Source of the DNA: Stegostoma tigrinum
Taxonomy: Eukaryota
Assembly: GCF_030684315.1 (NCBI RefSeq)
Contig: NC_081361.1
Coordinates: 17,473,861 to 17,537,860 of the forward strand
Length of the DNA: 64,000 nt
Reading direction: 5' to 3'
Shown: one piece after another, positions 1 to 64,000 of the stretch
Position numbering within the stretch: the stretch's first letter is position 1
How the letters are laid out: every line of letters starts with the position of its first letter
Notes under the pieces: generated by a model
The model's database searches: none
The model's input: the letters and a program-made list of their open reading frames with translations, nothing else
Told to the model about the DNA's origin: nothing
Program-made: the position numbers and the translations under genes

Positions 1-313
1 AGCATTCCTGTAGGTGATGTCAGCCACTAGGAGGCGCCCCCCACCCCACCTCCTGAACTTGAGAGATGGTGAAGTCGCGCCCCCGCAGCAGATTAGCCAG
101 GCCCAAGGAGCGACAGTCGTTACCCCACGACCAGATCAAAGGCCCACAGGTCCAGGCACCGGACCATTTCCCATACCTGCTGAGGTGCGGTATCCCGCAC
201 TCCTGCAGAAACAGGAGGTCCGCCTCGATGGTAGTCAGGTAGGCCAACGTGGACACACATCTTGCGGTGGACTTGACGCTGCGCACATTAATGCTCGCAA
301 CTCGTGCCCCCAT
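1..313 (-). pseudogene. Tx1 ORF2 N-terminus (AP-like endonuclease), frameshifted near 45
   Basis: ATG at 313: MGARVASINVRS...ADLLFLQEC (APE motifs SxNVR and LQE). After the frameshift it reads GRLLVADITYRNA. Confidence 0.85.
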
Positions 314-647: not shown

Positions 648-1742
648 TTAACTTCTGCTTCGGGTGGGCCCTCTCCGAATCCTCCTCGTCAGAGAAGCTC
701 TTATAGCCCCCCTGTAGCTGCCTCTTCCCGCCTGATGGTTGCGGTTCCTGGGCCCGTCGACGCACCTTCCTCCTCGCTTTCCAGACTGTTGTCCACTCCC
801 CTGGGTTGCCTGTCGCCGCCTCCATTGGCTCCGGGTTGTCGGAGCCTGCAGGGGTGCTTTGCTGGCCTCGGGCCCATCCTGCAGGGCTGGGCCCTCCTGC
901 ACGGCCTGGCCCTCGTGCACATTAGTGGGGTCCTTGCTGGGCCCTGGTGCCTTCCTCTCCTCTGGGGGGGCTGGCCCCGCATTTCCCCTGCCGGCGACCT
1001 GGGCGTAGGTGGTACCCCGCCGCGGGCATGCCCTATAGAAATGGCCCGATTCCCCGCAAAGGTTGCAGCTTCTCTCTCGTGGGCAATCCTTTGCAAGGTG
1101 TCCCTCCTCCCTGCAGTTCCTGCAGATGGTGGCTTTGCAGTCGGCCACCATGTGACCTGACCTACCACAGGCATGGCAGATTTTAGGTTGCCCTGCATAG
1201 GTCAGGTAGCCCCTGCTCCCGCCGATCGCGAAGCTGGACGGTGGGTGTGCGACATCCCCGTCTGCGCCCATCCTCAGCATCACCTTGACCTGCCGCTTAC
1301 TCGTCCTGATGCCAAAGGGGTCCACGATGTCAGTTAGGTCCCCTTCCACCTTCACATACCTTCCGAGGAAGGTCAGGACATCAACTGCTGGCACATGCGG
1401 GTTGTACATGTGCACAGTCACCATACGGCTCCTCTGTGCTGGCATCACAAACAGTGGGACAGCGGTCAATACAGAGAGGGGGCCCTCACCTCTTTTCTCC
1501 TCTAAAACCTCCAGGAAGCGCTCGCAAAGCTTGGCACTCCTGAAGGTCACGTCATAAAAACCTCCTCTGGGGAAATCCTGCAGGCAGTAAATGTCCGCAG
1601 CAGCGAACCCACAACAGTCCAACAGGACCCTCTTCACGAAGAAGGTGCGGTCCACAGGTGCACCTTCATCCACCTTCTTCATGGAAATGCGGATGGTGTT
1701 CCGGACCCCCTGACCTGGGGCACGAGCACTTGCCGCAGCCAT
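648..1742 (-). pseudogene. Tx1 ORF1 (ZCCHC3-like zinc-knuckle nucleic-acid-binding protein), frameshifted near 835; the low-complexity C-terminus continues in the 235..825 frame
   Basis: ATG at 1742 (MAAASARAPGQGVRNTIRI). Knuckles CHACGRSGHMVADC, CRNCREEGHLAKDC and CNLCGESGHFYRAC. Confidence 0.8.
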
Positions 1743-1898
1743 CGTTGCAGGTTGGCTGCTCCCCTGAACCAGCATTAGGCCGAAGCCAGCATTAAGATCC
1801 ACTGGTCGCAAGGGTGCACAGCCAACCCGACGTCCTCCTTTCACCTCCAAGATAGCACTCTCGTCCTCTCGGTCCACAAGAGAGTGGGTCTTTATTGT

Positions 1899-2771
1899 GT
1901 TCGAGATGTAAGCTAGTTCACTGAGTTTGCCGGTTTGTTCCCAGATGTTTTGTCACCATTCTAGGTAACATCAACAGTGAGCCTCCGACAAAGTGCTGGT
2001 GTTATGTCCCGCTTTCTATTTATCTGTTTAGGTTTCCTTGGGTTGGTGATGTCATTTCCTCTTCTTTTTCTCAGAGGATGGTAGACTGGCTCCAAATCAA
2101 TGTGTTTGTTGATGGAGTTCCGGTTGGAATGCCATGCTTCTAGGAATTCTCATGTGTGTCTCTGTTTGGCTTGACCTAGGATGGATGTGTTGTCCCAGTC
2201 AAAATGGTGTCCTTCCTCATCTGTATGTAAGGATGCTAGTGATAGTGGACCCTATACAGACAACAAGCAAAACGAACATCATCTACAAAATACCTTGCAA
2301 GAACTGTGACAAACACTACATTGGACAAACAGGCAGAAAGCTAGCCACCAGGATACGTGAACATCAACTAGCCACAAAACGACATGACCCACTATCACTG
2401 GTATCCTTACATACAGATGAGGAAGGACATCACTTTGATTGGGACATCACATCCATCCTAGGACAAGCCAAACAGAGACACGCACGAGAATTCCTCGAAG
2501 CATGGCATTCCAACCGGAACTCCATCAACAAACACATTTTCTCAGAGGATAGTAGATTGATTCGGAGCCAAAGAACAGGAAATGACATTACCAACCCAAG
2601 GAAACCTAAACAGATAAACAGAAAGCAGGACATAACACCAGCGCTTTGTCGGAGGCTCACTGATGATACTACCTAGAATGGTGACGAAACGTCTAAAATC
2701 TAACCTTCCAGCTCAGCGAGCAAGCTCACATCCAGAACCTCAACCTGAGCTACAAATCTTCTCAAAACTCG
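1899..2771. mobile_element. Penelope-like element (Penelope/Poseidon-type GIY-YIG), 5'-truncated fold-back copy
   Basis: Plus arm encodes NIIYKIPCKNCDKHYIGQTGRKLATRIREH...REFLEAWHS...INKH. About 1899-2247 is the inverted copy of about 2388-2738. Confidence 0.9.
2656..2697 (+). ncRNA. Minimal type-I hammerhead ribozyme motif in the PLE 3' repeat (core intact, stem II partly mutated)
   Basis: CTGATGA (2660-2666), tACTACC-tagaat-GGTGAC, GAAA (2686-2689), CGTC. A mutated mirror copy lies at 1944-1977 on the minus strand (CTGTTGA-tGTTACC-tagaat-GGTGAC-AAAACATC). Confidence 0.65.
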
Positions 2772-46665: not shown

Positions 46666-47176
46666 GTGTTTGTACTGACGGGTATTGATGTTGCTGATTG
46701 TCTGTCTCAATTCTCTGATGTCCGAAGCTGTTGTCCAGTTGGTTTTCAATTACTTTTCCAAAAATCTGCCGTCAAGATATTGGAGTCTTCTTTATAGATG
46801 ACCATTGCTATGGCTGCTAGGCATAATAGTAAGCTTATAATCCAGCTGGACATCTTACCTCATAAAAGCCAAAAGAGCTACAGGTGCTGTAAATCGGAAA
46901 AAATAGTATTCACTGGAAAAGCTGAGCAGGCCTGGCAGCATCTATGGAGAGAAATCAGAGTTAAATTTTTGGGTCGAGTGACCCTTCTTCAGAACTAGAT
47001 ACCTGACAAAGCAGTGTTTATGTTAAGATATCTCCCATAATATAAGAAAGCTGGTGCACATGTTGAGATCTTAAATAATTCAACAAACATTTATATCCAA
47101 ACATTATATTCGCAAGATAATAAAATGTGAGGCTGGATGAACACAGCAGGCCAAGCAGCATCTCAGGAGCACAAAA

Positions 47177-47210
47177 GCTGACGTTTCGGGCCTAGACCCT
47201 TCATCAGAGA
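47177..47210 (-). ncRNA. Minimal hammerhead motif (intact core)
   Basis: CTGATGA-a-GGGTCTAGGCCC-GAAA-CGTC-AG. Confidence 0.7.
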
Positions 47211-48386
47211 GGGGGATGGGGAGAGGGAACTGGAATAAATAGGGAGAGAGGGGGAGGCGGACCGAAGATGGAGAGTAAAGAAGATAGGTGGAGAGAGTGT
47301 AGGTAGGGAGGGGATAGGTCAGTCCAGGGAAGACGGACAGGTCAAGGAGGTGGGATGAGGTTAGTAGGTAGCTGGGGGTGCGGCTTGGGGTGGGAGGAAG
47401 GGATGGGTGAGAGGAAGAACCGGTTAGGGAGGCAGAGACAGGTTGGACTGGTTTTGGGATGCAGTGGGTGGGGGGGAAGAGCTGGGCTGGTTGTGTGGTG
47501 CAGTGGGGGGAGGGGACGAACTGGGCTGGTTTAGGGATGCAGTAGGGGAAGGGGAGATTTTGAAACTGTTGAAGTCCACATTGATACCATATGGCTGCAG
47601 GGTTCCCAGGCGGAATATGAGTTGCTGTTCCTGCAACCTTCGGGTGGCATCATTGTGGCAGTGCAGGAGGCCCATGATGGACATGTCATCTAGAGAATGG
47701 GAGGGGGAGTGGAAATGGTTTGCGACTGGGAGGTGCAGTTGTTTGTTGCGAACTGAGCGGAGGTGTTCTGCAAAGCGGTCCCCAGGCCTCCGCTTGGTTT
47801 CCCCAATGTAGAGGAAGCCGCACCGGGTACAGTGGATGCAGTATACCAGTATACCTCCCAGTCGCAAACCATTTCCACTCCCCCTCCCATTCTCTAGATG
47901 ACATGTCCATTATGGGCGTCCTGCAGTGCCACAATGATGCCACCCGAAGGTTGCAGGAACAGCAACTCATATTCCGCCTGGGAACCCTGCAGCCATATGG
48001 TATCAATGTGGACTTCACCAGTTTCAAAATCTCCCCTTCCCCTACTGCATCCCTAAACCAGCCCAGTTCGTCCCCTCCCCCCACTGCACCACACAACCAG
48101 CCCAGCTCTTCCCCCCCCCACCCACTGCATCCCAAAACCAGTCCAACCTGTCTCTGCCTCCCTAACCGGTTCTTCCTCTCACCCATCCCTTCCTCCCACC
48201 CCAAGCCGCACCCCCAGCTACCTACTAACCTCATCCCACCTCCTTGACCTGTCCGTCTTCCCTGGACCGACCTATCCCCTCCCTACCTCCCCACCTATAC
48301 TCTCTCCACCTATCTTCTTTACTCTCCATCTTCGGTCCGCCTCCCCCTCTCTCCCTATTTATTCCAGTTCCCTCTCCCCATCCCCC

Positions 48387-48420
48387 TCTCTGATGAAGGG
48401 TCTAGGCCCGAAACGTCAGC
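48387..48420 (+). ncRNA. Minimal hammerhead motif (intact core)
   Basis: CTGATGA 48390-48396, GAAA 48410-48413, GTC 48415-48417. Confidence 0.7.
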
Positions 48421-49779
48421 TTTTGTGCTCCTGAGATGCTGCTTGGCCTGCTGTGTTCATCCAGCCTCACATTTTATTATCTTGGAATTCTCCAGCATCT
48501 ACAGTTCCCATTATCTCTGATTATATTCGCAAGCACATGAGTGCCTGATATCAAATTAAGGCATGAAGTTACAAAGACAATATGTTTCCAGTAGCATGTC
48601 AAACTTTACATGATCAGTTAAGGTGGAGTGGTGACCTTTACATCCTCTCTCACTATGGTAATACCACGTTACAGCGACGACGTCATGAGTATTTTTCTTA
48701 AAGACATATTGTCATAACACAACAGCACTCCTCAGTATTAACCCTTTCAGTCTTTCTTTGTGTTTTGTTAACCTGCTTTATCTCTCAATTGCTTTTTCTG
48801 GTTCTGAATACAATACCTATATTGAGTTATGAAGTATTACATTTTGGTGGGAGGAGCAGGGAGAAGCAAAATAAAGGATACAATTCTAAAAAGTTTGAAT
48901 TCTAAAGATTCAAGAATTTGTGTATACTGCAGCTACAGATTTTCTTCTCTTCTCCGTTCCCTGTCTAATATGTACAGTAAGTTTATCCCCAGATGATGAT
49001 AGAGAGACAGGACTGGAATTTCCTTCCTGGTGTAAACTGGAAACCATCTGAGCTTCCTTTTCCCCTAGTCAATCTTTGAGATTTTCATGGGGGTGATCCC
49101 TTTTATTGAAATGGATACACCAGCAGGCAGAATGTCGGAGCTGAAAGGCCAGTCAGAAGCCTTTCAGCTTGCGATGAAGAGCAAGCCGCAACATAGGATG
49201 TTATATAATACACGGAGCCCTGCTCTCACCAGCTTCTTTAAAACCTCAAATAAAGAAAAACAGAGGAAGCTGCCAGACAATAGCTATTGAGGTTGGGAGG
49301 CAAAATCCCTTGACGGTAGCTGTTGGCAGTACCTGTATCCATGTAGACATGGAGAGAGTTAAATTTCTCTGTATCTCTGGCTCCCTGTCTACCATTAAGT
49401 GCAATGGTGGAGCCCAAAGGCATTCAAAAAGTGTCGCAGGATAAATCTAGCACCCATATGTCACTCGGTTTAACTTCTGTGCTGGGAATGCTTTTCAAAG
49501 CAATGATCCCAGACAAAATTAGCAGTGATTTATACAAGTGTAACTATTATAAGGAGAGATGGCACATAATCGTTTAAGCCAAATTGTTGACTGGGAGCAG
49601 AACAATTTGATCTTGCAGTCTGCCATGATGATTCTTTTTCTTCCATTGTCTTTCAGGGTGACAGAGGGTTTAAAACATCACCTCATACGCTCAAGTTCCC
49701 TTCTCAAATCAATTTGATGGAGTGTTTAAATGAGGTAACATAGGTGGCTGTTGAGAATATTGTGGTAGATGTGGTGTAA

Positions 49780-52200: not shown

Positions 52201-52897
52201 AGTGAATATTATTATTAGTATTGTGTTTTATTAATGTTGACCTGTTAAAACAAGGGCAGTGTTAGCTTTGGAAATCTTTTGATGTGTGACCTGCCTTGCT
52301 GTGTAAATTTGCTAACTGCTTAGTTTAATTTTCAGAGACTGATATTACTGAAACACTGTCAATATTATGGAAAAAATAAAATCGTACATGGACTGCAGTT
52401 CAGTTTTACAAAGGCAATTTAATAAAATTTTTTATGGAATGTTGTGCTCCTTTGAACAGCAGTTAAAAGCTAAGTGCAGCAACTGATGTGGTTTCAGATC
52501 TTTACCACCTTTTATTAAGCTTGGAACAATAAGTTTGATTTGCATTAATAAAAATACAATTTGAAGTGAATGTATGTGTTCTAAATAGGATTGTTAAATT
52601 CAGGTGAGCTCAAGGGTGTGTGTCTGGATGCTCTCGGAGGATCGAAGTGAACTTGATGGGCCAACTGGCCGACTGCGACACTGTAGGGATTCTTTATCTT
52701 TAGCACCACCATCATTCTCTTCTTGCTGCCACTCTTGTCCTCAGTGTCTTACAATCTTCCTCACCTTAGGCCTTGTCTTGTCTTGCTTTGACCTCACTGA
52801 GAGTCTTACATCAGTTTGGTCTTGCTTTGAGTCTATTGTTTATGTGTTTCTGTAATTGAGGTCGAAGAGATGAAAACGAACAACTAACATCTACTAC

Positions 52898-53080
52898 AAG
52901 GTGTAGAGCTGGATGAACACAGCAAGCCAAGCAGCATCAGAAGAGCAGAAAGGCTGACATTTCAGGCCTAGACCCAAATGTCAGCCTTCCTGCTCCTCTG
53001 ATGCTGCTTGGCCTGCTGTGTTCATCCAGCTCTACACCTTATCTCAGATTCTCCAGCATCTGCAGTTCCTACTATCTCTA
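52898..53080. mobile_element. 183-nt non-coding hairpin derivative of a Neptune-type PLE 3' end
   Basis: 65-nt arms 52898-52962 and 52976-53040, 13-nt loop, 40-nt one-sided tail. Confidence 0.85.
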
Positions 53081-55568: not shown

Positions 55569-56942
55569 AGATAATAAAGTGTGAAGCTGGATGAACACAG
55601 CAGGCCAAGCAGCATCTCAGGAGCACAAAAGCTGACGTTTCGGGCCTAGACTCTTCATCAGAGGGGGATGGGGTGAGGGTTCTGGAATAAATAGGGAGAG
55701 AGGGGGAGGTGGTCTGAAGATGGAGAGAAAAGAAGATAGGTGGAGAGGACAGTATAGGTGGGGAGGTAGGGAGGGGATAGGTCAGTCCAGGGAAGATGGA
55801 CAGGTCAAGGAAATGGAGGTGTGGCTTGGGGTGGGATGAAGGGATGGGTGAGAGGAAGAACAGGTTAGGGAGGCAGAGACAGGCTGGACTGGTTTTGGGA
55901 TGCAGTGGGGGGAGGGGAAGAGCTGGGCTGGTTTTGGGATGCGGTGGGGGAAGGGGAGATCCGACCCCACCACCCAAGACATTTTTCCATCCCCGCACTT
56001 GTCTCCTTTCCGGTGAGACCACTCTCTCCGTGACTCCCTTGTTCACTCCACACTGCCGTCCAACCCCACCACACCTGGCACCTTCCCCTGCAACCGCAGG
56101 AAATGCTACACTTGCCCCCACACCACCTCCCTCACCCCTATCCCAGGCCCCAAGTTGACTTTCCATATCAAGCAGAGGTTCATCTGCACATCTGCCAATG
56201 TGATATACTGTATCCATTGTACCCGGTGTGGCTTCCTCTACGTTGGGGAAACCAAGCGGAGGCTTGGGGACCGCTTTGCAGAACACCTCCACTTGGTTCG
56301 CAATAAACAACTGCACCTCCCAGTCGCGAACCATTTCAACTCCCCCTCCCATTCTTTAGATGACATGTCCATCATGGGCCTCCTGCAGTGCCACAATGAT
56401 GCCACCCGAAGGTTGCAGGAACAGCAACTCATATTCCGCTTGGGAACCCTGCAGCCCAATGGTATCAATGTGGACTTCACCAGCTTCAAAATCTCCCCTT
56501 CCCCCACCGCATTCCAAAACCAGCCCAGCTCTTCCCCTCCCCCCACTGCATCCCAAAACCAGCCCAGCCTGTCTCTGCCTCCCTAACCTGTTCTTCTCTC
56601 ACCCATCCCTTCATCCCACCCCAAGCCGCACCTCCATTTCCTGCCTACTAACCTCATCCCACCTCTTTGACCTGTCCGTCTTCCCTGGACTGACCTATCC
56701 CCTCCCTACCTCCCCACCTATACTCTCCTCTCCACCTACCTTCTTTTCTCTCCATCTTCGGTCCGCCTCCCCCTCTCTCCCTATTTATTCCAGAACCCTC
56801 ACCTCATCCCCCTCTCTGATGAAGGGTCTAGGCCCAAAACGTCAGCTTTTGTGCTCTTGAGATGCTGCTTGGCCTGCTGTGTTCATCCAGCTTCACACTT
56901 CATTATCTTGGATTCTCCAGCATCTGCAGTTCCCATTATCAC
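55569..56942. mobile_element. Neptune-type PLE fold-back insertion with a 14-nt target-site repeat (one mismatch)
   Basis: Plus arm is open 56017-56586, with the Cys-rich linker PCNRRKCYTC followed by GIY-YIG (NVIYCIHCTRCGFLYVGET). agattcaggcttag at 55557-55570 and agattcagtcttag at 56943-56956. Hammerhead motifs at about 55631-55662 (-) and 56816-56845 (+, GAAA mutated to AAAA). Confidence 0.93.
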
Positions 56943-63768: not shown

Positions 63769-64000
63769 TCAGAGATAATGGGAACTGCAGATGCTGGAGA
63801 TTCCAAGATGATAAAATGTGAGGCTGGACGAACACAGCAGGCCAAGCAGCATCTCAGGAGCACAAAAGCTGACGTTTCGGGCCTAGACCCTTCATCAGAG
63901 AGGGGGATGGGGGGAGGGAACTGGAATAAATAGGGAGAGAGGGGGAGGCGGACCGAAGATGGAGAGTAAAGAAGATAGGTGGAGAGAGTGTAGGTGGGGA
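63769..64000 (-). mobile_element. 3' end (with tail and intact hammerhead core at 63871-63898) of a young Neptune-type PLE; continues past the right edge
   Basis: Nearly identical to the reverse complement of about 48290-48520. Confidence 0.9.

What the first reader, a model, noticed from the sequence alone, without database searches (positions are those of the whole stretch)
1742..2050. Tx1 LINE fused to a Penelope hammerhead, with a sequence switch exactly at the predicted cleavage site: a LINE that may target PLEs and borrow their ribozyme
Seen: on the minus strand the order is PLE 3' repeat, hammerhead remnant (1977-1944), 45 nt of PLE-like sequence (1943-1899), Tx1 5'UTR, ORF1 ATG (1742), all in one orientation. 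Aligned by hand and ungapped, the two arms of the fold-back PLE differ at 9 of 107 nt (about 92% identity) up to the GTC/ATC triplet (2050-1944 vs 2587-2693). They then differ at 15 of 45 nt (about 67%) immediately after it (1943-1899 vs 2694-2738). The fold-backs at 47 kb and 55 kb show no such switch. Known: many Tx1-clade families are target-specific, including for other transposons; R2 elements release their 5' end from a host co-transcript with a ribozyme and can carry upstream target sequence; PLEs carry hammerheads. Inference: the 45 nt came in with the Tx1 RNA, so its 5' end was defined by PLE hammerhead cleavage at a donor locus and replaced the homologous target sequence on integration. 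Alternative: a PLE-internal template switch between subfamilies, with a chance Tx1 insertion next to it. I do not know whether this has been described.
Basis: partly seen in the sequence, partly recalled or inferred. Interest (0 to 1): 0.8.

Follow-up and report, generated by a model that had tools for sequence, protein, structure and literature searches.

The report
LINE that invades a Penelope ribozyme
A young jumping gene with thousands of copies inserts at one fixed spot inside the self-cutting RNA motif of another jumping gene and rebuilds that spot at its own front end, mostly with a damaged catalytic core, so it likely disables the ribozyme and joins its front end by sequence matching instead of borrowing the cut.

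Summary
The counts are right (9/107, 15/45), and the targeting is real. A Tx1-type LINE (2,744 exact 3' ends) inserts in the loop II/stem II border of one Penelope family's minimal hammerhead. 60 of 60 sampled 3' ends join there, 53 to the PLE tail and 7 to another Tx1 leader. The 45-nt leader is element-borne (29 of 30).

The ribozyme-borrowing part is not supported. Tx1-linked alleles begin 31 nt upstream of the cleavage site: A6U in 40/125 Tx1-side hammerheads vs 1/73 free arms, G16.2A in 98/125 vs 7/73, intact core in 9/125 vs 35/73. They lie on the Tx1 arm and not its fold-back sister. An RNA cut at GUC could not carry them. The 'switch' matches the end of the 15-18 bp target duplication seen in four truncated copies.

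Likely mechanism: the RNA includes upstream PLE sequence, and its cDNA anneals to the new target, as in R2, overwriting the ribozyme core. Ten literature searches found no Tx1 targeting Penelope. This scan noted similar targeting in two other genomes (unchecked). No RNA data.

The parts
1..313 (-). Start of Tx1 ORF2 (APE endonuclease); continues left of the window to a poly(A) end at L031:6617-6639
   Evidence: Exo_endo_phos, RVT_1 and zf-RVT matches in the adjoining part
648..1742 (-). Tx1 ORF1, ending early in this copy (364 aa; sister copies have 551-557 aa stop-to-stop frames that include about 70 codons upstream of the ATG)
1743..1898 (-). Tx1-specific 5' UTR
   Evidence: 99% identical in 40 of 40 scored copies; no match to the PLE arm, 36 of 49 differ
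1899..1943 (-). 45-nt leader (+34 to +78): an old copy of the PLE tail, inherited with the Tx1 element
   Evidence: 1,222 exact pattern hits, 29 of 30 followed by Tx1 UTR; leader subtype follows the body tree, 10 changes vs 26.2 shuffled; ends where 69 of 144 PLE tails end
1944..1957 (-). Duplicated target stretch (+20 to +33): 3' half of stem II, GAAA box and cleavage triplet; here with Tx1-type G12A (1951) and G16.2A (1946)
   Evidence: the same stretch follows the poly(A) at 60 of 60 sampled 3' ends; alleles
1958..1981 (-). 5' half of the minimal hammerhead (stem I strand, CUGANGA box with Tx1-linked A6U at 1974, stem II, loop II); inferred first nick at 1958|1957 or one base on
1982..2248 (-). 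Left arm of the host PLE fold-back; target-derived upstream of about 1986
   Evidence: sister-arm sharing
2249..2655 (+). PLE GIY-YIG fragment and right arm
2656..2771 (+). Empty target: right-arm hammerhead (core from 2660, cleavage after 2693) and PLE tail

Best explanation
This is one of thousands of copies of a Tx1-type LINE that inserts at a fixed site inside one Penelope family's hammerhead and carries a PLE-derived 5' end, and its RNA likely reaches at least 31 nt upstream of the ribozyme's cleavage site, so the cDNA likely anneals to the new target and overwrites the catalytic core with disabling bases. Numbering: 0 = first C of the CUGANGA box (window 1977); cleavage would be after +33. 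Shown: the 3' junction at +19/+20 or +20/+21; a duplication ending at +34 to +37 in truncated copies; tandem re-insertion into the rebuilt site; Tx1-only alleles at +3, +26, +27 to +29 and +31; target-derived sequence upstream of about -9. Inferred: (1) an ancestral Tx1 came to lie just behind a PLE tail ending at +78 and was transcribed with it; (2) ORF2 endonuclease nicks the bottom strand near +20 and the top strand near +35; (3) the cDNA 3' end pairs with target from roughly -9..+3 to +35 and mismatches resolve variably, so donor alleles survive in about 80% of insertions at +31 and about a third at +3; (4) the leader past the second nick is never overwritten and has drifted, which gives the sharp switch; (5) the rebuilt ribozyme is mostly dead, which would keep the RNA's upstream homology and cap. 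Whether the dead core is selected or neutral is open (about even).
For: Target: 30/30 3' ends ranked by likeness and 30/30 taken in genome order; 29/30 5' ends found with an ORF1-side query. Upstream alleles: the A6U motif (958 sites) is followed by Tx1 in 29/30, the A6 motif (13,955 sites) in 1/30. In 125 Tx1-side vs 73 free arms: A6U 40 vs 1, G16.2A 98 vs 7, intact core 9 vs 35. In 72 Tx1/sister pairs the allele is on the Tx1 arm only: +26 22 vs 2, +31 47 vs 2, +3 38 vs 0 (the +3 count includes loci picked for A6U). A multi-base variant replacing the GAAA box recurs, 4 of 4 with A6U in the tree set. A6U is linked to G12A, 22/42 vs 13/55 (by-eye tally; p=0.005). Copies with target-type +31 share +26 variants with their own 3' duplicate (3 of 4); copies with Tx1-type +31 do not (0 of 18). 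Four truncated junctions end at +34, +36, +37/38 and +31..37; L057 shares a private base on both sides. 32 of 36 copies picked by the 3' end are full-length with uniform 5' junctions, as R2 elements with upstream homology are (PMC3774820, passages).
Against: No RNA was seen, so the RNA 5' end, the promoter and ribozyme activity are all inferred. No tandem-duplication junction that would expose the RNA 5' end was found. The second-nick position rests on only 4 truncated copies, two with microhomology; 60 more candidate sites gave none, and a third class of candidates could not be read. A6U and G16.2A do not cluster on the body tree (22 vs 22.2 and 14 vs 14.2 changes), which fits variable overwriting but also recurrent mutation; the tree is poorly resolved among young copies. 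G12A and G16.2A are CpG changes that also occur in 8-11% of free PLE sites. Tracts are not always continuous (L208 has A6U but target-type bases to +49). The Tx1 leader keeps, and lengthens to 4 bp, the pairing of stem I. Exceptions to targeting exist: L143 (3' flank), L073 and L333 (5' flank), L403.
Confidence: 0.7

Rival explanations
1. Ribozyme borrowing: read-through RNA is cut at GUC/AUC, the RNA starts at +34, and everything upstream is target duplication.
For: The first fixed Tx1 allele is at +36 in 187 of 193 sites; stem I pairing is kept; about one copy in five has target-type +31 and shares variants with its 3' duplicate; 9 of 125 have an intact core.
Against: Tx1-only alleles at +3, +26, +27-29 and +31 cannot be carried by an RNA starting at +34. 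Some target-type +31 copies still have A6U (7 rows). Minimal hammerheads need dimers and cleave weakly in vitro, monomers not at all (PMC4209133, results read). Copies with target-type +31 form no clades.
Confidence: 0.07
2. The RNA has a fixed start near +4, and A6U is made afresh at each insertion by a non-templated base added to the cDNA; only +4 onward is inherited.
For: A6U shows no clustering on the tree; no Tx1-specific allele is clearly seen upstream of +3, and A6U copies share sister alleles at -13 to -1 (14/40, expected 0.13).
Against: The change is almost always A to T at one position (42 T vs 3 C/G in the first 100 sites, by eye), with no enrichment at neighbouring positions; non-templated additions are usually mixed (recalled). 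This rival also denies ribozyme borrowing.
Confidence: 0.13
3. A PLE-Tx1 composite was copied as a unit (by either element's enzymes, or by DNA duplication), so the apparent targeting is hitchhiking.
For: Host PLE and Tx1 copies are of similar age.
Against: Tx1 arms match their own sister arm at the -50 polymorphism in 41 of 54 pairs and share rare private bases with it; upstream fold-back structure and tail length vary by locus; truncated copies sit at the same site with duplications; tandem insertions use the same site; 20 fold-backs carry Tx1 in both arms.
Confidence: 0.04
4. Post-insertion gene conversion among occupied sites, not RNA, spreads the upstream alleles.
For: About 1,500 near-identical occupied sites exist, and some tracts are patchy (L208).
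Against: Conversion would not stop between -9 and +3 in 95%-identical sequence, and should also homogenise upstream polymorphisms, which stay target-like; A6U is near background in 12,059 free sites (0 of first 100).
Confidence: 0.06

Closest known systems
Tx1L of Xenopus laevis and crocodilian Tx1-Mar, Tx1-8_Crp, Tx1-4_AMi, Tx1-9_AMi (PMC4494074, parts 1-4 of 5 read)
   Same: Tx1-clade LINEs that insert preferentially into other transposons (piggyBac Tx1D, Mariner-N4, LTR elements, Harbinger); tandem insertion around a duplication; 5' heads taken from other RNAs; co-transcription from the target proposed.
   Different: The target here is a Penelope-like element and the site is inside a ribozyme; the 5' end is a copy of the target itself, both sides of the nick; specificity is near complete at one or two bases.
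R2 elements whose RNA carries upstream 28S sequence (PMC3774820, 12 passages read)
   Same: Uniform 5' junctions explained by a cDNA-target heteroduplex; junction variants can be carried in the RNA and propagated; earwig R2 carries 22 bp of downstream target with 3 substitutions at its 5' end.
   Different: R2 has a restriction-like endonuclease and its own working HDV-like ribozyme. This element has an APE endonuclease, and the only ribozyme is the host's hammerhead, which it mostly breaks.
Minimal type I hammerheads of metazoan PLEs (PMC4209133, results and discussion read)
   Same: Extra base after A9, G10.1-C11.1 pair, long stem II, short stem I, no stem III, palindromic 15.2-16.2, single or opposite-strand copies 100-700 bp apart.
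   Different: About 11% of exact sites here (1,482 vs 12,059) are split by a LINE, and the rebuilt 5' copy usually lacks the palindrome or a core base.

Membership tests
Tx1 clade LINE | Two ORFs; ORF2 = APE endonuclease, RT, C-terminal zinc domain | tested here: met
   uninterrupted 1,159-aa frames in L150, L164, L177, L258, L269
Tx1 clade LINE | ORF1 with RNA-binding domains and CCHC knuckles | tested here: met
   PF23057, PF23058, PF00098; that this layout marks Tx1 is recalled, and a paper search for it found nothing
Tx1 clade LINE | RT groups with named Tx1 elements rather than L1 | tested here: inconclusive
   RT region 44% identical to a zebrafish protein named 'transposon TX1 uncharacterized 149 kDa protein' (341 bits); human L1 ORF2p 254 bits over 810 aa. 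No tree with reference families was built; closest hits are unnamed amphibian proteins at 45-47%.
Tx1 clade LINE | Poly(A) 3' end, target duplication, target specificity | tested here: met
PLE minimal hammerhead | CUGANGA and GAAA boxes, extra base after A9, G10.1-C11.1, palindromic 15.2-16.2 in the free PLE site | tested here: met
   read against PMC4209133; stem II probability 0.99; no Rfam match
PLE minimal hammerhead | The same core intact at the Tx1 5' junction | tested here: not met
   intact in 9 of 125; this copy has three core changes
PLE minimal hammerhead | Self-cleavage activity | not testable with these tools
   needs a cleavage assay
R2-type ribozyme-processed co-transcript | RNA 5' end set by self-cleavage; nothing upstream of the cut is inherited | tested here: not met
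   alleles up to 31 nt upstream of the cut travel with Tx1
R2-type homology-guided 5' joining | Uniform 5' junctions and propagation of upstream variants | tested here: met
R2-type homology-guided 5' joining | Rare tandem duplications that mark the RNA 5' end | tested here: inconclusive
   none attached to Tx1 among the hits read from two patterns
Penelope-like element (host) | GIY-YIG domain, hammerhead-bearing terminal repeat, inverted tail | tested here: met
   (E=5e-4, below cut-off); a full-length copy with RT was not located

The most novel reading that the evidence does not exclude
A LINE has become a sequence-specific parasite of a ribozyme: it cuts inside the Penelope hammerhead, takes over the PLE's transcription, and has been selected to carry core-killing bases (A6U, G12A, G16.2A, GAAA-box replacement) that it writes over each new target, because an active hammerhead would cut off the upstream homology and cap it needs. 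This would be ribozyme disarming by a retrotransposon, and a natural fine map of how an APE-type LINE completes its 5' junction.
Probability: 0.35. Interest if true: 0.8.

Novelty: new variant of a known kind. Interest (0 to 1): 0.62.

Why it matters
How LINEs with APE endonucleases nick the second strand and join their 5' end is still poorly understood. Here more than a thousand independent insertions into one target, many with an untouched sister arm as a pre-insertion control, record which bases came from RNA and which from target. The family also adds a new target class for Tx1 (a Penelope ribozyme; about 11% of exact sites occupied), shows one retroelement disabling another's processing signal, and offers a young site-specific LINE with uninterrupted ORF2 copies and mostly full-length insertions for mechanistic study.

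Tried and rejected
Rfam scan: no hammerhead match. RNA runs: no RNA holder listed; this is no evidence on expression, and no reads were laid. My idea that Tx1 alleles at +3, +31 and +41 build one replacement hairpin was rejected, with pair probabilities 0.00-0.01. A helix between the core box and leader +53..+59 appears in 5 of 7 Tx1-side folds, but the free PLE has most of the same complementarity, so it is only a lead. A long conversion tract (to -50 or -100) was rejected: the 21-nt repeat and -50 differences are PLE polymorphism, shared with or varying equally between sister arms. Searches for duplicated junctions gave only PLE fold-back centres, PLE-only tandem hammerheads, ordinary sites and chance hits. 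The 47/55 kb PLE family is not seen as a target: 5 hits, none Tx1. 60 candidate truncated junctions gave none. The endonuclease domain alone had no PDB match. The Tx1L endonuclease paper (PMC85248) is not held, so its duplication length was not checked. Literature: (listings) gave no report of Tx1 targeting Penelope or of a hammerhead tied to Tx1. Repbase, Repbase Reports, Kojima and Fujiwara 2004 and most subscription journals could not be searched, and no supplements were read, so a family entry may exist.

Full report
Observation. The window is G000:C10:17473861-17537860 of a 3.2-Gb genome. The two arms differ at 9 of 107 bases up to the triplet and at 15 of 45 after it (p=3.6e-4), and similarity ends at 1899. 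ORF1 (1742-648) has ZCCHC3-type domains and CCHC knuckles. ORF2, mostly left of the window, has APE, RT and zf-RVT domains. The fold-back holds a GIY-YIG fragment. The RT region is 44% identical to a protein named TX1 149 kDa and more distant from human L1. The 47 and 55 kb fold-backs show no switch and belong to another PLE family. Below, 0 is the first C of the CUGANGA box (window 1977), and cleavage would fall after +33 (1944). Hammerhead residue numbers are recalled convention.

Targeting. With the leader-plus-UTR query, 40 of 1,594 candidates were scored, all 99-100% over the whole query. Of 30 loci, 29 have the hammerhead upstream and one a Tx1 poly(A). With an ORF1-side query that lacks the leader, 26 of 30 have the hammerhead, 3 a tandem Tx1 and 1 neither. 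At 3' ends, poly(A) is followed by the target from +20 or +21 in 30 of 30 ranked hits (27 PLE tail, 3 Tx1 leader) and in the first 30 of 2,744 exact 3'-end motifs (26 and 4). Exceptions seen elsewhere are L143 (3'), L073, L333 and L403 (5'). Over all loci fetched by then, a set partly picked by hammerhead patterns, 193 of 207 5' ends follow the hammerhead, 12 are tandem and 2 are other. This copy's own 3' end joins the leader of a second, older Tx1, whose 3' end joins the PLE tail. Exact counts give 1,482 hammerheads followed by the Tx1 leader start and 12,059 followed by the PLE tail; a small part of the first group may be free sites with a point change.

The leader. A leader pattern has 1,222 exact hits. 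29 of 30 are followed by the Tx1 UTR; L302 is followed by PLE tail but sits behind a Tx1 poly(A). Leader subtype follows a tree of 91 element bodies (10 changes vs 26.2 in shuffles), so it is inherited. It ends at +78, where 69 of 144 free PLE tails end (+70 to +79; another 56 end at +105 to +114). I infer capture of a PLE terminus by an ancestral Tx1.

The boundary is not the cleavage site. The hammerhead variant A6U (+3) has 958 exact sites, and 29 of the first 30 are followed by Tx1. The normal version has 13,955 sites, and 1 of 30 is. In sets not picked on these bases, Tx1-side vs free arms give A6U 40/125 vs 1/73, G16.2A (+31) 98/125 vs 7/73, G12 changed (+26) 46/125 vs 6/73, intact core 9/125 vs 35/73. 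A by-eye tally of the first 100 rows agrees (42 vs 0, 75 vs 8, intact 15 vs 71; tests). A variant that replaces the GAAA box recurs only on the Tx1 side in the loci read. Fold-back sister arms serve as pre-insertion controls: in 72 pairs the allele is on the Tx1 arm alone 47 vs 2 times at +31, 22 vs 2 at +26, and 38 vs 0 at +3 (the last includes loci picked for it). Upstream the Tx1 arm behaves as target: A6U copies share sister variants at -13 to -1 in 14 of 40 cases (0.13 expected; free pairs 12 of 41), and -50 agrees in 41 of 54 pairs. Weak excesses at -11 (7 vs 3), -50 (9 vs 3) and -56 (4 vs 0) remain unexplained. So donor sequence reaches +3 and seldom passes about -9. An RNA cut after +33 cannot carry these bases.

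What makes the switch. Four 5'-truncated copies keep target sequence to +34, +36, +37/38 and +31..37 (microhomology), a duplication of about 15-18 bp; in L057 a private base is on both sides. In full-length copies the first fixed Tx1 allele is at +36 in 187 of 193 sites, and target-type bases run further in 6. Copies with target-type +31 share +26 variants with their own 3' duplicate (3 of 4, p=0.009); copies with Tx1-type +31 do not (0 of 18). Thus sequence past about +35 is never overwritten and has drifted, while +3 to +33 is a mosaic of donor and target. The second nick happens to lie 1-4 nt from the ribozyme's cleavage site. This rests on few truncated copies; 60 more candidates gave none. 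32 of 36 copies picked by their 3' end are full-length.

Mechanism. Target-primed reverse transcription from a nick near +20 is inferred from established LINE biology. The cDNA would then pair with upstream target, as proposed for R2 elements whose RNA keeps 9-36 nt of upstream 28S; there junction variants propagate through RNA, and earwig R2 carries downstream target at its 5' end (PMC3774820, passages). Minimal PLE hammerheads need a dimer through the 15.2-16.2 palindrome and cleave weakly (PMC4209133). G12 is the general base (PMC6155905, passage), and the need for A6 is recalled. G16.2A breaks the palindrome, so most Tx1-side ribozymes are predicted dead. Selection for this is plausible but unproved: two of the changes are at CpG sites, A6U and G16.2A are scattered on the tree, and neutral decay of an early donor haplotype fits the frequencies too. 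Against my reading, the leader keeps stem I pairing, about a fifth of copies look like plain duplications, tracts can be patchy (L208), and no RNA was available.

Comparison and novelty. Tx1 families that target piggyBac, Mariner, LTR and Harbinger elements are known, as are 5' heads from other RNAs (PMC4494074, parts 1-4 of 5). PMC4640811 (passages), PMC11167929 (part 1 of 4), PMC4889948 (one passage) and bioRxiv 10.64898/2026.07.22.740005 (passages; no mention of Tx1) add nothing on this pairing. Ten searches (listings) found no Tx1 targeting Penelope, but Repbase and subscription journals were out of reach and no supplements were read. Two earlier notes of this scan describe Tx1 targeting of Penelope ends in other genomes; no look-alike DNA was found, and I could not check them. 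The family is young (median non-CpG divergence 1.0%, this copy 2.1%) with uninterrupted ORF2 frames in several copies.

Verdict. Real and well supported as a Penelope-hammerhead-targeting Tx1-type family with a target-derived 5' end (about 0.96). The homology-joining, broken-ribozyme mechanism is about 0.7, and ribozyme borrowing as the main route about 0.07. New variant of a known kind; interest 0.62.

Noticed in passing
L031:1685-6616 (left of the window): A second, older-subfamily Tx1 copy with internal deletions lies head-to-tail behind this one and ends on the PLE tail, so this locus is a two-copy array.
   Followed up: partly
L386, L387, L388, L389, L390, L395, L396, L397: PLE-only tandem duplications of the hammerhead with a unit of about 56 bp (roughly -17 to +37) recur at unlinked loci, up to three or more units; they could form the dimer a minimal hammerhead needs and resemble nascent retrozymes.
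   Followed up: partly
window 1959-1918, minus strand: An ATG at +18 opens a frame that stays open for about 33 codons in the PLE tail but is stopped after 13 codons in 181 of 186 Tx1 leaders by the near-fixed +57 C-to-T change. It may be the PLE start codon turned into a short upstream ORF; the first nick falls in or next to it.
   Followed up: partly
free PLE arms: PLE tails end in two clusters, +70 to +79 (69 of 144) and +105 to +114 (56 of 144), suggesting two reverse-transcription start regions.
   Followed up: no
L302:1500-1590: A Tx1-type leader follows a Tx1 poly(A) but continues into PLE tail with no Tx1 body; possibly loss of a tandem copy by recombination between leader and tail.
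   Followed up: no
L364, L369, L380-L384: Very short PLE fold-backs repeatedly turn at the same point, about 16 nt upstream of the hammerhead core.
   Followed up: no
window 47113-48484, 55569-56908, 63769-64000, 52885-53042: A second PLE family with its own minimal hammerhead forms long and short fold-backs; no Tx1 insertion at the equivalent site was found.
   Followed up: partly
window 1978-1982, minus strand: The bases around -1 fit a recalled initiator consensus, which would put a transcription start inside the inferred -9 to +3 boundary; untested.
   Followed up: no
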